A DNA stretch of 32,886 bases from the UHGV virus genome UHGV-1421593; one strand, 5' to 3'. How positions within the stretch are numbered: the stretch's first letter is position 1; each line of letters opens with the position of its first letter. The position numbers and the translations under genes were made by a program. The DNA is from a virus. The notes under the pieces are model-generated. The model saw only the letters and a list, made by a program, of their open reading frames with translations, did no database searches and was not told the DNA's origin. Positions 7,187-19,976 of this stretch are shown here, piece by piece.

Positions 7187-8956
7187 TCATGGATAGTACA
7201 AATTTTTAAAGTGATTATTAATATCAACCATAGCATCAAGAATTGGTTTGAACAATGAAAAATCTATAGTCTGTCTATTTTCTCTGATAATATTGTTGGC
7301 AAACCTGTCTTTTCCAAAAGTAGTAGTGCTATCATGATTATTACTTTTATCAAAGGATTTACCGTTAATTGTCTTTGTCAGAACTTCATCTTTGAAAAAG
7401 TCTTCCATGCACGATTGTTTATCACCAGCCAATAGTGGAGTTAACAATACGTAGAGGTTATTCTCTAAATGTAAAAATTTATGTTTTCTTACGTCCTCTG
7501 ATTTTCTAGGCAGGTGAGAATATTCTTTGATTATATTATTAATAAAATCAGATGGCCCAGTGTCATTATCCAAAACAATTATTACTGGATTTTTAGGCGG
7601 TTGTCTTTCAAATTTCTTGCATTGTTCTCTATGCCTTCTAAAGAATCTTACATAGTCAGCAGCCCCACCGTAGAGGTCTAAAAAATATTCCTTTTTTGCG
7701 TTTGTTTTGAATAACGTAATATTTAAAATTCTATTCTTTGTTCTATCGTCAACTCTAACCAGAGCAGGATAACTTAAATACAAAGAATCAATTGCACATT
7801 TCAAATAAATTGGATCTGTTTTACCTTCTGTCAAAACTGTAGGCTTTATATTCCCATAAAAATACTTATAATGAAGAAAGTTACTGAATGCTGTCTCTCT
7901 TGAATTCAATTTGAGAGTAAAATTAATTCCAGTTTTCTTTAGCACATATTTTTCTGGGAGTGTATGTTTTTTAGCGTTAATGTTATTATACTTATCAAGC
8001 ATATCAATATAAACGAAGCGGCCTTCAAGTTCATTTAGAGTACCTTTTCGCGGTTTTCCACTAATATCCAAAAGGGTAAAATCCCCTTCTTTATAAAGTG
8101 CATGCGCCATAGCTCTGGTTTTTTTAATATAATCTTTATTGACATTTATTTTTTTGTTTACGGTTAAACCTGTTACTTCCTGCCTTGATGTATGCCGCAA
8201 TATTCTGGTCTTATTATTATTAATTTTAAATCCAGCTTTTTCAATTTCATTAACTAACAATGGTCCTAACTCGTTAGAATTCTCATTTATAACAATTGAG
8301 TCAGGAAACTGATTTTTGTTAGTTGAGAATGTTATATCATCTGCATATCGACTATAACTGCATCCATTAGAAAGTGCCAACTTTGACAATCTAATATCTA
8401 AAATATTACATATAAGATTGCTTATTACAGGAGAGCAAGGACTTCCTTGCGGAAGTTTTCCATCATAGCAAGCTATCTGCGCAATTATAGTTGCTATTGA
8501 TGGGTGCAAATTAAAATATTGATTCGCGATAAAATAACCACGGACCCTACCGAAATTAAATGTAGGGAAAAAATCCTCAAGATCAATATTTAAAACATTG
8601 GTTTTATTTCTATGTCTTTCTGCATTTGTTATTATTGTTTTATTTTTCTCAAATCCATGAGATAAGCTAGGGGTGATATTATTTGTTTTCCATATTTCGC
8701 TCTGACAAACATACAATAAATCTGATAAACGCCTTTGTATGTCTTTTAGTTTTTCAGTAGGCGCAAATATCTCTCTGTCACCTCCAGACTTCTTTTTTAT
8801 AATAAATCTTTCATATTGATGCTCAGGTCGTATTCTGTACAGGACATTAGTAAGAAAAGAAACTTTAATTTGAAGTAAGCGTGCAAACTCAAATTTGGTC
8901 TTGCATGACTTGAGTCTTTCTAAGTAGGAGGGAGTGAACATAATAGTAAATTCCAT
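7187..8956 (-). CDS. Retron-type reverse transcriptase with C-terminal Toprim domain (Retron-Eco2/Ec67-like architecture)
   Basis: RT motifs in order: GGDREIF...IQRRL (1/2), retron-specific NAxxH (TNAERH), LNIDLEDFFPTFN (A), QGSPCSPVISNL (B'), YSRYADDITFS (C, YADD), VTGL (retron VTG). C-terminal ~280 aa has Toprim signatures: TVLTEGKTDPIYL (Glu) and VIIVLDNDTGPSD (DxD). 589 aa. Confidence 0.88.
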   Translation of the reverse strand: MEFTIMFTPSYLERLKSCKTKFEFARLLQIKVSFLTNVLYRIRPEHQYERFIIKKKSGGDREIFAPTEKLKDIQRRLSDLLYVCQSEIWKTNNITPSLSHGFEKNKTIITNAERHRNKTNVLNIDLEDFFPTFNFGRVRGYFIANQYFNLHPSIATIIAQIACYDGKLPQGSPCSPVISNLICNILDIRLSKLALSNGCSYSRYADDITFSTNKNQFPDSIVINENSNELGPLLVNEIEKAGFKINNNKTRILRHTSRQEVTGLTVNKKINVNKDYIKKTRAMAHALYKEGDFTLLDISGKPRKGTLNELEGRFVYIDMLDKYNNINAKKHTLPEKYVLKKTGINFTLKLNSRETAFSNFLHYKYFYGNIKPTVLTEGKTDPIYLKCAIDSLYLSYPALVRVDDRTKNRILNITLFKTNAKKEYFLDLYGGAADYVRFFRRHREQCKKFERQPPKNPVIIVLDNDTGPSDFINNIIKEYSHLPRKSEDVRKHKFLHLENNLYVLLTPLLAGDKQSCMEDFFKDEVLTKTINGKSFDKSNNHDSTTTFGKDRFANNIIRENRQTIDFSLFKPILDAMVDINNHFKNLYYP

Positions 8957-9105
8957 TATTAATTATGTTATTGCACATGCAGGCACTCTTACGCATTTCA
9001 AAGTGACGCCCAAGAAGATCCGACGTCCGTCAGAGGCGAATACTGCCGACCTTTTAATCACTGATTGCGATACCACAACCAACAAATCTACCTGCATGTG
9101 CCTTG
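8957..9105 (-). ncRNA. Candidate retron msr-msd non-coding RNA locus
   Basis: 11-bp perfect inverted repeat (8973-8983 GCACATGCAGG / 9091-9101 CCTGCATGTGC) encloses 107 nt and ends 16 nt before the reverse transcriptase ATG, as retron a1/a2 repeats do. Exact msr/msd boundaries and branching G not determined. Confidence 0.3.
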
Positions 9106-9386
9106 CTAATTTATCATAGTTAACAATCAAAACAAGCACTTTTGAAAATGGCTGTATCTTATTGATTAACTAATCATGGTCAAAGCCGAACATTCCTCGT
9201 GAAGATTGTTAGAATTTGAGATCTTTACGAGCACTTAACAGACTGTCAGATTCAGTCATGGAGCAAGTTGAATGCAATGTTATCATGTATCACTTTTTCT
9301 TTTTCGTCGTTAAGATGGTTCATAAAACTTACCATTAAGTCGATTGATAACTAGTAATTACATCTGTAGGTTCTCTTGATGATTTG

Positions 9387-10127
9387 TCAGAGGGCATTTG
9401 AGCTAAATAAAGTTGATTCGACGAGTTCAATTGCTTCATCTTCGATAGTTGATTTGTCCATTGTTTTGGTCGGCTCAGAAATATCAATTTTCACAATTAC
9501 AATCTCGTCATCAAAAGATAGTTTTTCACCCCTTCTTTCTTTACGTAAAACGCTGTTCTCTTTGCTGAGTTCAGCGTTTTTCCTTTCTAACTCTGCGACT
9601 CTTTTCATCAAATCTTCCATTTTGGAATTCACAACATCTAGTCTCTGCTCAGTCGGAAATTCAATACTTTCGATGATTTCAATAAATTCACCAGTATACA
9701 TCTGAACAAACTGCTCGGTGTCTTTGATCTTCTGCATTCTTAGATCTGAACAGAAAGCTTTCCACGAGTTCTTTTTACCGTTAATTTCACAAGCAACGAT
9801 AACAGCATTATCGGTTGTATAAGCAACGATTGCAGGCAGATTATTAACTTCGGTCGTACCGATTTCGAAGCTATGCATATTTTTTACAGTCACAGCATTT
9901 TCAATCTTCTGTAACATCTTAGCTCGAACATTACGATGAATATCTATAGCTTTAACAAGAGCTTTCAGGCTGTTTTTGTTATTGGTCATTCTATTAACTT
10001 TGATAATATTTCTGTTCAGGCTTGCTTTAACTGTTCTGTCTAGATTTTCGAAGACTGCAAATTTGAAATTCAATTTATTTGCCTTTATTGATTGGTTGAG
10101 TTCTGATATTACGTTTTTTGCAAGCAT
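9387..10127 (-). CDS. Hypothetical protein with C-terminal coiled-coil
   Basis: 246 aa ORF on the cargo-island strand with coiled-coil segment MEDLMKRVAELERKNAELSKENSVLRKERR. True start may be an internal Met; overlaps the upstream small ORF by ~50 nt in another frame. Confidence 0.45.
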   Translation of the reverse strand: MLAKNVISELNQSIKANKLNFKFAVFENLDRTVKASLNRNIIKVNRMTNNKNSLKALVKAIDIHRNVRAKMLQKIENAVTVKNMHSFEIGTTEVNNLPAIVAYTTDNAVIVACEINGKKNSWKAFCSDLRMQKIKDTEQFVQMYTGEFIEIIESIEFPTEQRLDVVNSKMEDLMKRVAELERKNAELSKENSVLRKERRGEKLSFDDEIVIVKIDISEPTKTMDKSTIEDEAIELVESTLFSSNAL

Positions 10128-10233
10128 TATACATCGTTGCTTTATTCATTTGTTTAGATTCTGCAATTTGCTGAAATGTCTCACCAGAGTCTAAGCGAGA
10201 TTCAATTTCGAATTTGTTAGGTATAAATTTCAT
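10075..10233 (-). CDS. Small helix-turn-helix protein
   Basis: Start at internal Met (MKFIP). Helix-turn-helix-like segment GETFQQIAESKQMNKATMYNACKKR. May be the N-terminal part of a split gene with 9387-10127. Confidence 0.35.
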   Translation of the reverse strand: MKFIPNKFEIESRLDSGETFQQIAESKQMNKATMYNACKKRNIRTQPINKGK

Positions 10234-10245
10234 GGGGTTGCCTTT

Positions 10246-10282
10246 TTTATTGAATTGAAAAATAAGCACTCCGAAGAGTGCT
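10246..10282 (-). terminator. Candidate terminator hairpin (AGCACTC-cgaa-GAGTGCT) with U-tract on the minus strand
   Basis: 7-bp stem, 4-nt loop, followed on the minus strand by TTATTTTT, just upstream of the helix-turn-helix gene. Confidence 0.4.
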
Positions 10283-10483
10283 TTAAACTTAAGGAATTTT
10301 TAAATGAACTAAGCTAATTGCTTATATCTTATTTTATGACGGATAAAGTCAGTAGTAAACAAACGAGAGAAAATAACGAGGAAGAAGAAACTCTCTGTGT
10401 TCATACTAATATTTATATAGTTCACCGAAAGTGTAAACAAAGTCCGAAAAATAATTTAGTGAAAAGCAGGTGCATTGATGCAC

Positions 10484-10509
10484 ATCAAAACGCATCGATA
10501 ACGCATCGA
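10484..10509. promoter_or_regulatory. Tandem AACGCATCGAT x2 including 10-bp palindrome GCATCGATGC (operator-like)
   Basis: Direct repeat at 10485-10494 and 10496-10505; perfect palindrome at 10498-10507; related dyad GTGCATTGATGCAC just upstream. Confidence 0.3.
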
Positions 10510-10615
10510 TGCGACTCGGAGAAGTGCATGGACCCTAGAAAAAATCGCCCTATAAGAACAATTGGATAAAGATGAACTGGAAGGATATAGAAGCAGTACA
10601 AAACCTGGAAAACAT

Positions 10616-10757
10616 AGCGAAGCGAGCAGATTGCGCGAAGCGCGGGCGAAGCCCTAATTGATAAACATTAGCGCGAAGCGCGACAGATAACACTATCGAA
10701 CTTGATTACTAGCTACTGATTAGATGTTTCTAGATAAAGATTATTAGCGCTTCGCGC
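10616..10757. repeat. Cluster of GCGAAGC mini-hairpin motifs (4 direct, 1 inverted), including two GCGCGAAGCGCG copies and an inverted AGCGCTTCGCGCG
   Basis: GCGAAGC at 10617-10623, 10635-10641, 10645-10651 and 10673-10679; inverted GCTTCGC at 10747-10753, with another at 11083-11089. No ORF of 60 aa or more is credible here. Confidence 0.6.
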
Positions 10758-10959
10758 GTTCGCTACGCTCACAATATTATTTTTCAGATCTGGATAATAA
10801 TGATTACTGGATAACTGCATTATACTGTTCGTCTGACAATCAATAAACATAACGATCGATAATTAATTGAAATAACGTTAATGAGTTCTCCTTCGCTATC
10901 GCTACGTCGAACGGGCAAGCCCTATCTTTGATGATAGTAATGATTGACTGCTACATCAT

Positions 10960-11160
10960 CCCTCCTCGCTTCTCCCTGCTTCTACTGACCTAATGATACT
11001 CCAAGTCAATTCCCTGTTATCAAGTTCACCTGATGCTTCCTGCTTCGTTATCGACCTTATTGCTTTTGACTCTACGCTTTCAGCTTCGCAGGAAGTACGC
11101 CCTGCTGTTTGCAGATCGTTCTAAAGAACTGAGTAATCAAGTTCTCAACTATTTGATTCC
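10960..11160. repeat. Pyrimidine-rich (plus strand) non-coding segment with imperfect ~20-bp direct repeats (CCTGCTTC...GACC)
   Basis: CCTGCTTCTACTGACCTAATGAT (10972-10994) versus CCTGCTTCGTTATCGACCTTATTG (11037-11060). Strong strand-compositional skew by eye. Confidence 0.35.
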
Positions 11161-11220
11161 TTGCGCCCCAAAGATGCCTCCAGTATCTGTGGTTTACAAT
11201 CTACTCATTTGAAATTCAAT

Positions 11221-11243
11221 AAAAAAGGGAGCACTAAGCTCCC
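11221..11243 (-). terminator. Rho-independent terminator (GGGAGC-actaa-GCTCCC), A-run/T-run flanked, potentially bidirectional
   Basis: Perfect 6-bp stem. On the minus strand it is followed by TTTTTT directly after the stop of the 59-aa ORF. Confidence 0.6.
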
Positions 11244-11248
11244 TTTTG

Positions 11249-11428
11249 TCATTTCAGACCAAGCACTAATGCTTGTTCAAGTTTTTTCTCAAGCAGAGTG
11301 TTTAATCCACTTTCGAAAAATTCAATCGCTTGAACGTCTGAGTCTGTTTTTAAGCGAACAGCGGCATCGTCAACTGTTAACTCTTCGGTCTTAACATCAC
11401 CGTTTTTATAAACCACATTAGCAATCAT
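11249..11428 (-). CDS. Small protein (59 aa), unknown function; absent from the supplied ORF track
   Basis: ATG at 11428 preceded by AAAGGAGAAAGC (strong Shine-Dalgarno). Translation MIANVVYKNGDVKTEELTVDDAAVRLKTDSDVQAIEFFESGLNTLLEKKLEQALVLGLK; stop is followed at once by the terminator hairpin. Confidence 0.45.
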   Translation of the reverse strand: MIANVVYKNGDVKTEELTVDDAAVRLKTDSDVQAIEFFESGLNTLLEKKLEQALVLGLK

Positions 11429-11666
11429 GCTTTCTCCTTTGTTGCTAAAAAATAATAACCGAATGATATCACTTGTTCAATTTTTCTTTCAATCAAATAA
11501 GTATCCGATGAATAGTCGGCTCTCTAAACTAGCAGGTATGAAATAGTTCCTTAATTCTGAACTTCCTCACTTTGCTTCCTATTTAATATTGCAATTTTAA
11601 ATCTAGTGTAATTAATTTAGCTACAAACTTGCATTTATTATACATTTAAAAAATCGCCTCCATTCG

Positions 11667-12101
11667 TTAGGCATTCTCAGTTTCACTCATTTCTCCTTTA
11701 GTGCTATTCACACAGCGAAGAAACTGATCCCTCTGATACGCGGCAGTTTTGTCTGACATCTGTTTTTTGAATAACTCAAAATCCCCCTCTGTACGTTTAA
11801 AAATAATCATGCTAATCGCAGATGGTTTTTTATTAGCCGATTTGCTAGCAAGAAGTTTTTCGATGTTATCGAATCCGAAAGCCTGATTCACGATTCGTTG
11901 TGCTTCAACAGCATCGACAACTTCAACCGTATTTTCAGCTTTAACTTCTTCAACAACTGTATATTCCTCGATGTTAGCTTTAACACGACGAACAACAGAA
12001 CGAGGAACATCGTATTTTTCAGCAAGCTTACTCTCTGACATATCAGTACCAGCGTTTAATTCAGAAGCAATTCGGTTTTCAACAGTCAGTTCAGTTTTCA
12101 T
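11667..12101 (-). CDS. Helix-turn-helix DNA-binding protein (putative regulator)
   Basis: Start at Met (MKTELTV) with AGGAG Shine-Dalgarno 7 nt upstream. Helix-turn-helix segment SESKLAEKYDVPRSVVRRV. Divergent from the large terminase gene. Confidence 0.5.
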   Translation of the reverse strand: MKTELTVENRIASELNAGTDMSESKLAEKYDVPRSVVRRVKANIEEYTVVEEVKAENTVEVVDAVEAQRIVNQAFGFDNIEKLLASKSANKKPSAISMIIFKRTEGDFELFKKQMSDKTAAYQRDQFLRCVNSTKGEMSETENA

Positions 12102-12246
12102 TGTCGTTCTCCTGTGTTTTGTTGGAACAGACTTTAACAGGCGGATATCCAGGTGCAAGAACTCTTAGAAATAATTTTATGGAGGTTTTCATAAATACAG
12201 ACAGAGAAATGAAATCCATTTTGGGTTCATCCACTTAGGGCTGATT

Positions 12247-14130
12247 ATGAAAAACTCAAATAAACTGAAAAGTATCTTACAGAATGCAAAGCGCTTTTTA
12301 ATGCCACCTCCTGACTACACTCCGTCCGAGTGGGTCGAACAGTACCTGAAATTCCCTGATGGTCCTTATACAGGGCAGCCGATGAAACTGTTTGAGTTTC
12401 AGAAAGGCATGATTGACGTCATTAAAGAACGTAAGAAGAAAATCGTCTTCGAGACTTCTGCCCAGATTGGCAAGACAACCATCTTGAACGGAATTCTGTT
12501 CTATAAGTCTGCTACTGATCCCGGTAACGCTGGTGTCTTGCAGTCAACCGGTAAAGAGACGACTCAATGGCTATCAGGCAAGATTCGCCCAATGATTGAC
12601 GAATCGGAAGAAATGCAACGAATCGTCACCGACAAGAACGACAGAAACGCAGTGAATAACACCAGTCAAATTCAGCTACGTGCTGGAGGCTTTTGGTATT
12701 TCATGTCGCTCAATAGCCCTTCTCACTTACGCGGTAAAACTCTTCCGCTGATGTTGCTTGATGAAGTTGACGCAGTTGAAACAGACACAGAAGAAGGCAA
12801 CCCGATTATCATCGCGGAACAACGTGCTACGACGTTCGGTGAAGACGCTCGTGTTTTCATTAGCTCGACGCCTACAAGTAAATACGGTGCTATCCACACG
12901 CAGTATGAAGCATCCGACAAGCGCAAGTATCATGTTCCCTGTCCTACATGTGGTCATAAGCACGAACTGACGTGGGAGAATATCAAATTCGACTGGGTAA
13001 AAATCGATGGTAAATCATTACCTGATCCTAACTCTGCCAGAATTGAATGTCCTGAATGTCATCACGCTTTCTCTGAAGGCGACCGAGCACGAGCAATTAA
13101 ACAAGGTGAATGGATTATTCATCAACCTGAAAGTCGAATTGCTGGATTCCACGTAAGTCGTTTATACAGCCCAATGAGTTCTATCAAATCAGTTGTTGAA
13201 GACTATAAGCAAGCATGGCAAACGTTCAGCTTGTCAACGTTTTATAACACTGTTCTTGGTCTACCGTTTGATGATTTAAACGAAGACATTGAGGTTAGTA
13301 AATTAGAAACACTCAAGACGAATATCGGCATCAGCAATATACCAGAAGACACGTTGTTTTTAACCGCTGGGGTTGACCAACAGCAAGACCGTTTAGAAGT
13401 AACCTTGATGGGTCACAACGAACGAACCGTTTATATTCTTGCACATCGTAGCTTTATGACAATGAACGCTGAGGTTATCGATTCCCCTGCTTATAAAGAA
13501 CTTCTTGCATACGTTAAAGCACCGTTCAGAACAGCTTTGGGAAGAAAGGTTCCTTTAGCGTGGGTGAACGTCGATAGCTCAAACGGTCGAGCAACTAAAA
13601 CAATCTATCGTTTCTGCTCTCAGTGGACAAACCTGAAAGCAATTAAAGGTGCCAGCTCTGTTGATGCCCCTTATGTTCCAACGAAAATCACGAAAACCGG
13701 TGGTTATGAACTTTATATGATTGGTGTAAACCAAGGAAAAAACTTAGTTCGTGAACTGCTAAACAGAAGCGTGAAATCTGGAAATACACCAGTCAGAGTC
13801 GAAATCTCTGATGATGTTCCAGATGATTACTGCGAACAGCTTATGTCCGAAGAATTAAAACGCTCTGGTAATACTGTTAGATGGGTTATTAAACAAGGCG
13901 GTGTTCGTAACGAAGGTCTTGACTGCTTTAACTACGGTTATTGCGCGCGTCTGCAAGTTCTAGAGAAAATCAAATTTCACGAGTGGAGGAAACTCGCTGC
14001 TAAATCTGATATTGAAATGCCAGAAGAACAAAACGAAACAAATTCTCCTGTTATTCAAACTCATGAACCTCGTCGAAACATTATCAAACGAAACAGACCA
14101 GTTAATAAGCCTCGTGGTTTCGGATTATAA
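12247..14130 (+). CDS. Terminase large subunit, lambda GpA family
   Basis: Walker A (SAQIGKTT), Walker B-like LMLLDEVD, zinc-finger CPTCGH...CPECHH, nuclease-domain motifs LTAGVDQQQDRLEV and NEGLDCFNYGYCA colinear with lambda gpA. 627 aa. Confidence 0.92.
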   Translation: MKNSNKLKSILQNAKRFLMPPPDYTPSEWVEQYLKFPDGPYTGQPMKLFEFQKGMIDVIKERKKKIVFETSAQIGKTTILNGILFYKSATDPGNAGVLQSTGKETTQWLSGKIRPMIDESEEMQRIVTDKNDRNAVNNTSQIQLRAGGFWYFMSLNSPSHLRGKTLPLMLLDEVDAVETDTEEGNPIIIAEQRATTFGEDARVFISSTPTSKYGAIHTQYEASDKRKYHVPCPTCGHKHELTWENIKFDWVKIDGKSLPDPNSARIECPECHHAFSEGDRARAIKQGEWIIHQPESRIAGFHVSRLYSPMSSIKSVVEDYKQAWQTFSLSTFYNTVLGLPFDDLNEDIEVSKLETLKTNIGISNIPEDTLFLTAGVDQQQDRLEVTLMGHNERTVYILAHRSFMTMNAEVIDSPAYKELLAYVKAPFRTALGRKVPLAWVNVDSSNGRATKTIYRFCSQWTNLKAIKGASSVDAPYVPTKITKTGGYELYMIGVNQGKNLVRELLNRSVKSGNTPVRVEISDDVPDDYCEQLMSEELKRSGNTVRWVIKQGGVRNEGLDCFNYGYCARLQVLEKIKFHEWRKLAAKSDIEMPEEQNETNSPVIQTHEPRRNIIKRNRPVNKPRGFGL

Positions 14131-18950: not shown

Positions 18951-19976
18951 ATGACAAACGATATTTTTGTAGGAAATAACGTCAGAGTTTCAGTTAATCC
19001 GCTAATCGTTGAAATCCCAGGATATAACGACCCAGGTTATGTAAGCACTGATAAACTGGCTGCATTCCCTGTTATCGGATTTAGAAAAGAAGTTCAGACA
19101 CTAGAAGATTACAGAACCGATTTTACAACGAAACTTTCAGGTGACGTAACAATTAATGACACTTCAATAAGCTTATTTGAAGACAGTTCTGACCCAGTTT
19201 ATCAGTTGCTTGATGAAGCTCTTATGGAAAAGAAACTCCTTAGATTCAGAAGTCTTTATGTTATCGATGGAGAAACAAAGAAAGATAATGATGCTGGTCT
19301 TTATCATATTTTTAATGCTTATGTAACTAAGAAAGAAACAACAGGCTCCGAAAACTCAGTCGTTACAACAACTTTTAATCTTTCTCCTGATGGTCAGTTG
19401 TTTACAGGTTTTGCTGAATTCTCGGTTCCGTTAAACGTTGGCGATTATGGTATTGGTGCTGGTACAGAAGAAATCGCAGGTGTTAAAGACTTAGGATTAT
19501 TAACTGGTAACAGATGTGTAACAGTCGATGCAACAAACAGCGATAACCCTTATAACTCTGGCACGTCTGCTATGGCTATTCAGCATCCTGATGGTCAAGG
19601 TTGGGAGCTTATTGGTTCGTCAGTCGGTAATCCAAGCATCAGAATCAGAAACAAACAACAAAGCGGTGAAACTGTTACTGAATCTCCGTGGGTCAAAGTC
19701 TATACAGAACTTGAACGTCCAACTCCTGAAGATATTAATGCTTTGCCTATTACTGGTGGAGAACTCAAAGGATCTTTGACTATTCAGGAATATCTGAACG
19801 TTCGTAAAAAGATTTCTGCGCCACAAGGTGAAATCTTGGCTCTAAATAGTAATGAAATTAACTCAACTTCTGTCAAGGTCAAAGGCAAAGAAGTCTATTC
19901 TCCAAGTAATAAACCAACGCCATTAGAGATTAATTGTGTAGCGTTAGGAGAAACCTTAGACGCAGGAGTATTTTAA
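18951..19976 (+). CDS. Tail tube (major tail protein-like) paralogue with ~180-aa C-terminal extension
   Basis: N-terminal ~160 aa aligns with the 23134-23610 product (DIFVGNNVRVSVN...EIPGY...AFPVIGFRKEVQT versus DIFAGSYVSVFYN...EIPETGAFPSTGIEREVIT; KLSG/KLVG; YVIDGETKK/YWIDATKK). Confidence 0.5.
   Translation: MTNDIFVGNNVRVSVNPLIVEIPGYNDPGYVSTDKLAAFPVIGFRKEVQTLEDYRTDFTTKLSGDVTINDTSISLFEDSSDPVYQLLDEALMEKKLLRFRSLYVIDGETKKDNDAGLYHIFNAYVTKKETTGSENSVVTTTFNLSPDGQLFTGFAEFSVPLNVGDYGIGAGTEEIAGVKDLGLLTGNRCVTVDATNSDNPYNSGTSAMAIQHPDGQGWELIGSSVGNPSIRIRNKQQSGETVTESPWVKVYTELERPTPEDINALPITGGELKGSLTIQEYLNVRKKISAPQGEILALNSNEINSTSVKVKGKEVYSPSNKPTPLEINCVALGETLDAGVF

What the first reader, a model, noticed from the sequence alone, without database searches (positions are those of the whole stretch)
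8957..9386. Candidate msr-msd locus upstream of the reverse transcriptase, bounded by an 11-bp inverted repeat
A perfect 11-bp inverted repeat (8973-8983 / 9091-9101) encloses 107 nt and ends 16 nt before the RT start, the position and geometry expected for retron a1/a2 repeats. The enclosed length is similar to the ~118 nt I recall for Ec67 (58-nt msr, 67-nt msd). The whole 430-bp interval has no credible ORF, so the true msr-msd could also lie further upstream (a 5-bp-stem hairpin is at 9241-9257).
Basis: partly seen in the sequence, partly recalled or inferred. Interest (0 to 1): 0.7.

Follow-up and report, generated by a model that had tools for sequence, protein, structure and literature searches.

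The report
Ec67-family retron msr-msd gene, confirmed
The inverted repeat next to the reverse transcriptase does bound the small RNA gene (msr-msd) of a retron of the well-studied Ec67/Eco2 anti-phage family, so this is an unannotated but ordinary new member of a known system.

Summary
On the minus strand, 9101→8973 is a 129-nt retron non-coding RNA gene. It ends 16 nt before a 589-aa RT-Toprim fusion gene (7187-8956). That protein scores 7e-216 against PADLOC RT-Toprim_I-C, is 50% identical to the Eco2/Ec67 RT, and RefSeq calls it "retron Ec67 family".

The 11-bp perfect repeat is the core of a 13-bp a1/a2 stem, extended by one G·U and one A-U pair. The stem ends at G9088, which aligns with Eco2's branching rG15.

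A covariance model built only from 59 distant, non-E. coli relatives hits the window once, at 8968-9106(-), with 84.6 bits. Across 71 family members:
- the a1/a2 stem is 95% paired, with compensatory changes at 12 of 13 pairs;
- the msr hairpin is 91% paired, with compensatory changes at 9 of 9 pairs;
- the branching G and the opposing G-U are invariant.

A family-conserved -10 box sits 12 nt before a1, so transcription should start at a1. The other 285 bp of the flagged interval (9102-9386) is ordinary, non-conserved spacer apart from this promoter. The predicted msDNA is about 64 nt.

msDNA production and phage defence are inferred from homology, not shown. This is a new member of a known kind, of low to moderate interest.

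The parts
8973..9101 (-). Complete retron ncRNA gene (msr-msd), from a1 start to a2 end, 129 nt
   Evidence: CM R1 scores 139 bits here. The independent CM R2, built from 59 non-E. coli relatives, scores 84.6 bits at 8968-9106(-), and the next best hit in the window is 16 bits. The RNA fold is -53.4 kcal/mol, z = -3.8. The region is collinear with the Eco2 ncRNA.
9089..9101 (-). a1 arm of the terminal stem (RNA 5'-GCACAUGCAGGUA-3')
   Evidence: It pairs with 8973-8985 over 13 bp, including one G·U pair. Across the family this helix is 94.9% paired, and 12 of 13 pairs show changes on both sides.
9088..9088 (-). Predicted branching guanosine, whose 2'-OH primes msDNA synthesis; equivalent to Eco2 rG15
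   Evidence: G is present in 71 of 71 aligned family members, flanked by A (71/71) and A (70/71). The position aligns with rG15 of Eco2. Its priming role is inferred from PMC12405507 and PMC12916289.
9061..9082 (-). Single msr stem-loop: 9 bp with a GUAU loop, equivalent to Eco2 rG20-rU42
   Evidence: Predicted by the MFE fold and the RNAalifold consensus. Across the family it is 90.6% paired, and 9 of 9 pairs show changes on both sides. Loop U and the closing C are near-invariant.
8987..9050 (-). Predicted msd template, 64 nt. Reverse transcription would start opposite A8987 (giving dT1) and stop at G9050, possibly G9051.
   Evidence: The boundaries come from positional homology with Eco2. 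The same column rule returns 67 nt for Eco2, which is its measured length (PMC12916289: priming at G15, stop at G52:dC67). The template A and the adjacent G are 68/71 and 71/71 conserved. The exact 3' end is inferred.
8973..8985 (-). a2 arm of the terminal stem (RNA 5'-UGCCUGCAUGUGC-3'). G8986, just 5' of it, lies opposite the branching G.
   Evidence: G (column 296) and U (column 297) are 71/71 invariant.
9108..9113 (-). Inferred -10 promoter hexamer TAAATT, placing the transcription start at about 9102-9100, the first base of a1
   Evidence: A TANNNT hexamer starts 12 or 11 nt before a1 in 38 of 71 family members, against a background of about 2 per position. This stretch is conserved with the SK1144-type retron, whose homology ends at 9120. 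It is below the threshold of the generic promoter scan.
9130..9135 (-). Inferred -35 hexamer TTGTTT, 16-nt spacer
   Evidence: The 'GCTTG' core is conserved between the window and SK1144 in a stretch that is otherwise much less conserved. This is a weak inference.
7187..8956 (-). RT-Toprim fusion gene, 589 aa; RefSeq WP_000494974.1 starts at 8941
   Evidence: Pfam RVT_1 4e-23. PADLOC RT-Toprim_I-C 7e-216. PDB Eco2 chains 9lm3 and 9i2f at 5e-189, with YADD, TEGKTD (EGxxD) and DNDTGP (DxD) all present. It is 50% identical to the Eco2 RT and 72% identical to the SK1144-type RT. RefSeq names it 'retron Ec67 family RNA-directed DNA polymerase/endonuclease'.
9136..9386 (.). Remainder of the flagged interval: non-conserved intergenic spacer, not part of the retron RNA
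   Evidence: It is present in only 2 of 5426 E. coli genomes, whereas 8957-9120 is present in about 526. There is no CM hit and no Rfam hit. The fold z-score is +0.36.

Best explanation
Window 9101→8973 (minus strand) is the msr-msd non-coding RNA gene of a type I-C (RT-Toprim, Ec67/Eco2-family) retron carried on an E. coli prophage. The following are shown here: the RNA's family membership, its terminal a1/a2 stem, its msr hairpin, the invariant branching G, and an intact RT-Toprim gene 16 nt downstream.

The mechanism below is inferred by homology with Eco2.
1. A promoter whose -10 box lies 12 nt before a1 transcribes the ncRNA and the RT as one unit.
2. The a1 and a2 arms pair, and the RT binds the msr hairpin.
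3. The RT primes DNA synthesis from the 2'-OH of G9088.
4. It copies the msd template from A8987 up to about G9050.
5. After RNase H trimming, this leaves a branched msDNA of about 64 nt.
6. Three msDNA-protein units assemble into a trimer in which the msDNA cages the Toprim nuclease.
7. A phage nuclease (DenB for Eco2) degrades the msDNA, and the freed Toprim cuts tRNA/RNA and shuts down translation, which aborts the infection.
For: Identity and geometry of the repeat.

RT-Toprim protein: Pfam RVT_1; PADLOC RT-Toprim_I-C 7e-216; Eco2 PDB chains at 5e-189, with the YADD, EGxxD and DxD motifs intact; RefSeq name.

The Eco2 ncRNA sequence was first recalled from memory and then verified as a 132/132 match beside the Ec67-family RT of E. 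coli S10, the strain used in PMC12405507. The window RNA is collinear with it: 74% identity over a1+msr, 46% over msd and 86% over a2.

Among five E. coli variants, all 13 a1/a2 pairs are kept and 4 pairs covary.

CM R1 finds one strong site in the window. It also finds a site just upstream of the RT, on the RT strand, in 66 of 75 distant RT-Toprim loci at E ≤ 1e-3.

Pair counts on 71 sequences give 86% paired, against 34-46% when the partners are slid. The a1/a2 stem is 94.9% paired and the msr hairpin 90.6%.

The branching G, its flanking A residues and the G-U on the a2 side are invariant.

Model R2, built without any E. coli sequence, hits 8968-9106(-) at 84.6 bits.

A -10 box is enriched at -12/-11 relative to a1.

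Mechanistic steps come from PMC12916289 and PMC12405507.
Against: There is no experimental evidence here for a transcript, for msDNA or for defence. Rfam 15 gives no hit, but it also appears to hold no model that recognises this RNA family.

The base equivalent to Eco2's flipped-out U51, just before the termination point, is G in this retron and in its SK1144-type sister (it is U in 53 of 71 family members). The msDNA 3' end is therefore uncertain by at least 1 nt.

The predicted msd DNA has no stable fold (z = +0.78), although Eco2's does not either.

Neither candidate start codon has an obvious Shine-Dalgarno sequence.

The covariation counts were made on alignments fitted to the model, which favours the structure.
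Confidence: 0.93

Rival explanations
1. The msr-msd lies further upstream in the interval (9102-9386, for example around the 9241-9257 hairpin), and the 11-bp repeat next to the RT is incidental.
For: A 5-bp hairpin exists at 9241-9257. A generic promoter-like site lies at 9183-9156(-).
Against: Neither covariance model hits 9102-9386 on either strand. The stretch folds no better than shuffled sequence (z = +0.36). It is not conserved with any other Ec67-family locus, because homology stops at 9120. The family-wide -10 box places the transcription start at a1.
Confidence: 0.01
2. The inverted repeat is a chance repeat or a protein-binding or terminator palindrome unrelated to a retron RNA.
For: About 2.7 perfect 11-bp inverted repeats within 200 nt are expected by chance in this window, and 4 are seen. 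A terminator-like hairpin was flagged inside the region at 9034-9019(-).
Against: Twelve of 13 stem pairs show compensatory changes across 71 loci from many phyla. The G that follows the stem is invariant. The independent CM scores 84.6 bits. The region is collinear with an RNA whose msDNA has been visualised by cryo-EM. The flagged 'terminator' lies within the msd template and is not followed by a true T-run.
Confidence: 0.01
3. The locus is a true Ec67-family retron by descent but is no longer functional. It could be silent, make no msDNA, or give no defence.
For: No expression data exist. G replaces the U51-equivalent base at the termination site. There is no clear ribosome-binding site. 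This exact locus occurs in only 2 of 5426 complete E. coli genomes. In MS 115-1 the host prophage carries an IS3 element in its large terminase gene, so the prophage itself is decaying there.
Against: The 589-aa ORF is intact, with all RT and Toprim catalytic motifs. Every family-invariant RNA position is retained. The same G51 variant is kept in the sister retron found in about 511 E. coli genomes, which argues that it is tolerated. The -10 box sits at the family-typical position.
Confidence: 0.06

Closest known systems
Retron-Eco2 (Ec67), type I-C1, E. coli Cl-1 / S10
   Same: Both have one RT-Toprim fusion protein, with the ncRNA directly upstream on the same strand. Both have a 13-bp a1/a2 stem ending in A-G(branch)-A, a single msr hairpin and the ...AAGAGU... 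template start. The YADD, EGxxD and DxD motifs are shared, and the sizes are almost the same (129 vs 131 nt RNA; 589 vs 586 aa protein).
   Different: The RT is only 50% identical. The msd is 46% identical and the whole RNA 61%. The predicted msDNA is about 64 nt rather than 67 nt. The msr loop is GUAU rather than AAU. The U51-equivalent position is G. The genomic home differs: Eco2 sits in a P2-like prophage between the replication-endonuclease/DinI-like genes and the portal gene. This retron sits in a different prophage, next to ybiT, which has a recombinase-family integrase gene and an HK97-family prohead protease, and it lies between terminase genes.
Unnamed Ec67-family retron of E. coli SK1144 and about 510 other complete E. 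coli genomes
   Same: It is the closest relative found. The ncRNA is 88% identical with the same length, and a1+msr is 94% identical. The RT is 72% identical. It shares the G at the U51-equivalent position, the -10 region and both candidate start codons.
   Different: It lies in a chromosomal island near dhaR beside an 'ABC-three component system', not in a prophage. Its a1/a2 pair at stem position 12 is U-A rather than U·G. Its msd differs at about 18% of positions.
Retron-Eco1 (Ec86), type II-A
   Same: It shares the general retron logic of a1/a2 repeats, a branching G and a retron-clade RT. PDB chain 7v9u matches at 1.7e-32 over the RT domain.
   Different: Its RT has no fused Toprim domain and it uses a separate effector. 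Its msr has an extra hairpin (PMC12405507). The RT similarity is far weaker.

Membership tests
Retron type I-C (Ec67/Eco2 family) | Retron-clade reverse transcriptase with a YADD catalytic motif | tested here: met
   Pfam RVT_1 4e-23. PADLOC retron RT models match. 'YSRYADDITFST' aligns to the Eco2 YADD motif.
Retron type I-C (Ec67/Eco2 family) | Toprim domain fused to the RT C-terminus, with motif IV EGxxD and motif V DxD (defined in PMC7736814) | tested here: met
   PADLOC RT-Toprim_I-C scores 7e-216 over residues 10-585. TEGKTD and DNDTGP are present in the alignment to Eco2. The I-C1 versus I-C3 sub-variant was not resolved.
Retron type I-C (Ec67/Eco2 family) | ncRNA gene immediately upstream of the RT on the same strand, closed by inverted repeats a1/a2 | tested here: met
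   A 13-bp stem joins 9101-9089 and 8985-8973 and ends 16 nt before the ATG. All 13 pairs are kept in 5 E. coli variants. The stem is 94.9% paired in 71 relatives.
Retron type I-C (Ec67/Eco2 family) | Conserved guanosine at the 3' end of a1 (the branching G), opposite a G that precedes a2 | tested here: met
   G9088 and G8986 are present, and both columns are 71/71 G. They align with Eco2 rG15.
Retron type I-C (Ec67/Eco2 family) | A single msr stem-loop between the branching G and the msd | tested here: met
   The 9-bp hairpin 9082-9061 appears. Nine of 9 pairs show compensatory changes.
Retron type I-C (Ec67/Eco2 family) | Match to a family covariance model that does not include the sequence under test | tested here: met
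   R2, built from 59 non-E. coli loci, scores 84.6 bits (E about 2e-24) at 8968-9106(-).
Retron type I-C (Ec67/Eco2 family) | Production of 2'-5' branched msDNA | not testable with these tools
   This needs msDNA extraction, urea-PAGE, debranching and sequencing.
Retron type I-C (Ec67/Eco2 family) | Anti-phage defence through msDNA-caged Toprim RNase activity | not testable with these tools
   Inferred only from Eco2 studies (PMC12916289, PMC12405507).
Any Rfam 15 RNA family | Score at or above a family's gathering threshold | tested here: not met
   There were no hits at gathering thresholds over the whole window, and only snoRNA noise at E ≤ 10. This reflects the lack of a suitable Rfam model, not evidence against a retron RNA.

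The most novel reading that the evidence does not exclude
The retron's strongly diverged msd (46% identical to Eco2's), its G at the termination-adjacent position and its unusual home between the terminase genes of a non-P2 prophage could together mean a functional difference. It might make an msDNA with a different 3' end or different architecture, and so sense a different set of phage nucleases than Eco2 does. A more remote possibility is that the neighbouring uncharacterised 246-aa gene (9387-10127) is a new accessory component.
Probability: 0.12. Interest if true: 0.45.

Novelty: new member of a known kind. Interest (0 to 1): 0.2.

Why it matters
The finding gives exact coordinates for an RNA gene that RefSeq leaves unannotated, in this genome and in its sister retron. 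Those coordinates cover a1, a2, the branching G, the msr hairpin and the msd template. The sister retron, in about 511 complete E. coli genomes, is equally unannotated, and Rfam 15 did not detect the RNA in this window.

The two covariance models built here recover the ncRNA in most type I-C retron loci across many phyla, so they could be used to annotate the family. For retron engineering, this locus is a second natural E. coli Eco2-type scaffold with a different msd and an RT only 50% identical to Eco2's.

Biologically it adds nothing unexpected. It is a standard single-gene retron carried as a defence cargo gene on a prophage.

Tried and rejected
- **Rfam.** A search at gathering thresholds over the whole window and a permissive search over 8900-9450 returned only snoRNA noise. 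This was uninformative because Rfam holds no fitting model.
- **Phage collection.** A distant blastn of 7000-10200 against the phage collection found no match.
- **msd hairpin criterion.** The criterion was dropped, in line with the three-way-junction structure in PMC12916289.
- **Generic promoter scan.** It did not list the a1-proximal promoter. Its one minus-strand site upstream of a1 within the interval (9183-9156) is not conserved. The family-wide -10 profile was used instead.
- **Upstream alternative.** The hypothesis that the RNA lies upstream in 9102-9386 was rejected.
- **Plus-strand reading.** On the plus strand the region scores only 18 bits with R1, a mirror image of the palindromic stem, and gives no R2 hit.
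- **Literature.** Searches for WP_000494974 and for 'MS 115-1' with 'retron' found no paper.
- **246-aa neighbour.** It has no Pfam or PADLOC hit and only weak PHROG hits, and it is absent from related retron loci. It was therefore not counted as part of the system.
- **Not run.** The search for homologous proteins, the representative-protein search and structure prediction were skipped, because they could not change the verdict.

Full report
**Observation**

The minus strand of 8930-9400 was read directly. GCACATGCAGG (8973-8983) and CCTGCATGTGC (9091-9101) form a perfect 11-bp inverted repeat with 107 nt between the arms (pair I9). The repeat ends 16 nt before the first ATG (8956) of a 589-aa minus-strand ORF, 7187-8956. 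RefSeq starts the same gene at the second ATG, 8941.

The interval 8957-9386 carries no annotated CDS in the identical E. coli MS 115-1 chromosome. Taken alone the repeat is not statistically remarkable. About 2.7 such repeats within 200 nt are expected in this 38% GC window, and four are present.

**The neighbouring gene**

The ORF has a Pfam RVT_1 domain (4e-23). It matches the PADLOC model RT-Toprim_I-C end to end (7e-216, residues 10-585). It matches the solved Eco2 ('Retron Ec67 protein') chains 9lm3 and 9i2f at 5e-189. In that alignment the RT YADD motif and the Toprim motifs TEGKTD (EGxxD) and DNDTGP (DxD) are intact. These are the motifs that define type I-C1/I-C3 retrons in Mestre et al. 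(PMC7736814).

RefSeq names the protein 'retron Ec67 family RNA-directed DNA polymerase/endonuclease' (WP_000494974.1). It is 50% identical to the Eco2 RT of strain S10. It is 72% identical to a sister RT found in E. coli SK1144.

**The RNA**

Folded as minus-strand RNA, 9110→8965 gives -53.4 kcal/mol (z = -3.8; no shuffle of 200 folds as well). The fold has three main features:
- The terminal stem is 13 bp, not 11. After the perfect 11 bp come a U·G and an A-U pair (a1 9101-9089, a2 8985-8973).
- The stem abuts G9088.
- A 9-bp hairpin follows at 9082-9061.

I recalled the Eco2 ncRNA sequence from memory and then verified it. It matches 132/132 beside the Ec67-family RT of E. coli S10, the strain from which PMC12405507 took Eco2.

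Numbering that sequence reproduces every residue named in the two structure papers: rG15, the rG20-rU42 hairpin, rU51, rG52, and the dC63-dT64-dG65-dC66-dC67 end. The window RNA is collinear with it:
- G9088 corresponds to rG15.
- 9083-9060 corresponds to rG20-rU42.
- G9050 corresponds to rG52, where Eco2 reverse transcription stops.
- A8987 corresponds to the template of dT1.
- G8986 lies opposite the branching G.

Identity to Eco2 is 74% over a1+msr, 86% over a2 and only 46% over the msd. A conserved msr with a variable msd is the usual retron pattern.

**Comparative evidence**

The stretch 8957-9120 is about 86% identical in roughly 511 complete E. coli genomes, always next to an Ec67-family RT. 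The rest of the interval, 9121-9386, occurs in only two genomes.

Five E. coli variants (window, SK1144, S10/Eco2, GF4-3 and 2014C-3061) keep all 13 a1/a2 pairs, and four of those pairs covary.

An RT alignment retrieved 80 distant RT-Toprim loci (34-53% identity) from many phyla. A covariance model built from the five E. coli RNAs (R1) found one strong site in the window (139 bits). It also found a site on the RT strand just upstream of the RT in 66 of 75 distant loci at E ≤ 1e-3.

Pair counts on the resulting 71-sequence alignment:
- 86% of cells are paired, against 34-46% when partners are slid by 1-3 columns.
- The a1/a2 stem is 94.9% paired, with changes on both sides at 12 of 13 pairs.
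- The msr hairpin is 90.6% paired, with such changes at 9 of 9 pairs.

The alignment is fitted to the model, which favours the structure, but the margin is large. The helices inside the msd are much less supported (70-78% paired).

The motif A-G-A at the end of a1 is conserved 71/71, 71/71 and 70/71. The motif G-A-G-U before a2 is conserved 68, 68, 71 and 71 of 71. The window has all of these bases.

To remove circularity, a second model (R2) was built from 59 distant hits only, with no E. coli sequence. It hits the window at exactly 8968-9106(-) with 84.6 bits (E about 2e-24). The next best hit in the whole window scores 16 bits.

**Promoter and the rest of the interval**

Among the 71 loci, a TANNNT hexamer starts 12 or 11 nt before a1 in 38, against a background of about 2 per position. 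The window has TAAATT at 9113-9108, with TTGTTT 16 nt upstream at 9135-9130. This predicts a transcript that starts at about the first base of a1.

Homology with the SK1144-type retron ends at 9120, just past this -10 box. The remaining 9102-9386 folds no better than shuffled sequence (z = +0.36), has no covariance-model or Rfam hit, and includes the trivial 5-bp hairpin at 9241-9257.

**Predicted product**

Counting from the rG52-equivalent column to the template A gives 67 nt for Eco2, its known msDNA length. The same count gives 64 nt for the window. The family range is 58-128 nt with a median of 73.

The base equivalent to Eco2's flipped-out U51 is G here and in SK1144 (U in 53 of 71). The 3' end could therefore be one base longer.

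As DNA, neither this msd nor Eco2's folds significantly. That agrees with the report that Eco2 msDNA strands form an intermolecular three-way junction rather than hairpins (PMC12916289). The centre of the predicted msDNA contains an imperfect inverted repeat (TCCGAC-GTCC-GTCAGA) around a GACGTC palindrome. It could play the analogous role, but this is speculation.

**Mechanism**

The mechanism is inferred from Eco2 (PMC12916289, PMC12405507).
1. The ncRNA and RT are co-transcribed.
2. The a1 and a2 arms pair.
3. Synthesis is primed from the 2'-OH of G9088.
4. The msd is copied, and synthesis terminates near G9050.
5. The template is trimmed.
6. A 3:3 msDNA:RT-Toprim trimer assembles in which the msDNA cages the Toprim nuclease.
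7. A phage nuclease degrades the msDNA.
8. The freed Toprim cleaves tRNA/RNA and arrests translation.

The RNA anatomy, family membership and intact catalytic motifs are shown here. Transcription, msDNA synthesis and defence are inferred.

**Novelty**

The system type is thoroughly known, and RefSeq already names the RT. The RNA gene itself is unannotated. No paper in the searchable library mentions this protein accession or this strain together with retrons. It is a new, diverged member of a known kind.

Noticed in passing
window 4638-5821 (+): A 298-aa protein at 4925-5821 has a C-terminal CAP12/Pycsar-type TIR domain (Pfam 4.8e-38). It matches the PADLOC candidate defence family PDC-S35 at 1e-70. 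An abutting 95-aa ORF precedes it at 4638-4925. This looks like a second defence cargo gene, about 1.4 kb from the retron on the same prophage.
   Followed up: partly
window 10128-11248: This is about 1.1 kb with no annotated gene. It carries three copies of the palindromic 11-mer GCGCGAAGCGC / GCGCTTCGCGC at 10633, 10671 and 10747, further GCGAAGC-like motifs, and tandem GCATCGAT motifs at about 10470-10515. It may be a phage regulatory, origin or packaging region, but it remains unexplained.
   Followed up: no
window 6132-14130: The retron, the 246-aa unknown gene (9387-10127, minus strand) and the non-coding stretch lie between a terminase-small-subunit-like gene (6132-6680, PHROG 57, 3e-21) and a 627-aa ORF at 12247-14130. 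That ORF corresponds to the phage large terminase, so this is an unusual cargo position. In E. coli MS 115-1 the large terminase is split by an IS3 element, whereas the window has the uninterrupted ORF.
   Followed up: partly
L002 (E. coli SK1144) 6017-6145, and about 510 other E. coli genomes: A sister Ec67-family retron (ncRNA 88% identical, RT 72% identical) is present in about 511 of 5426 complete E. coli genomes. It lies next to an 'ABC-three component system' near dhaR. Its ncRNA is also unannotated in RefSeq.
   Followed up: partly
L003 (E. coli S10) 3050-3148: RefSeq/PGAP starts the canonical Eco2 RT CDS at locus position 3050, inside the msr-msd gene (3002-3132). The annotated protein is therefore N-terminally over-extended across the ncRNA.
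   Followed up: no
window 8968-9106 and loci L006-L085: Rfam 15 did not detect the ncRNA in this window. A model built here from five sequences recovered a site upstream of the RT in 66 of 75 RT-Toprim loci from diverse phyla. This suggests a curated Rfam family for this RNA is missing.
   Followed up: yes
window 19047-19059 / 19194-19206: A perfect 13-bp inverted repeat (ACTGATAAACTGG / CCAGTTTATCAGT) with a 134-nt spacer is the longest perfect short-range inverted repeat in the window. It was not examined.
   Followed up: no
window 10264-10283 (-): A strong intrinsic-terminator-like hairpin (AAGCACTCTTCGGAGTGCTT followed by a T-run) lies just upstream of the 246-aa gene on the minus strand. 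No terminator was found between that gene and the retron, so read-through into the retron is possible.
   Followed up: no
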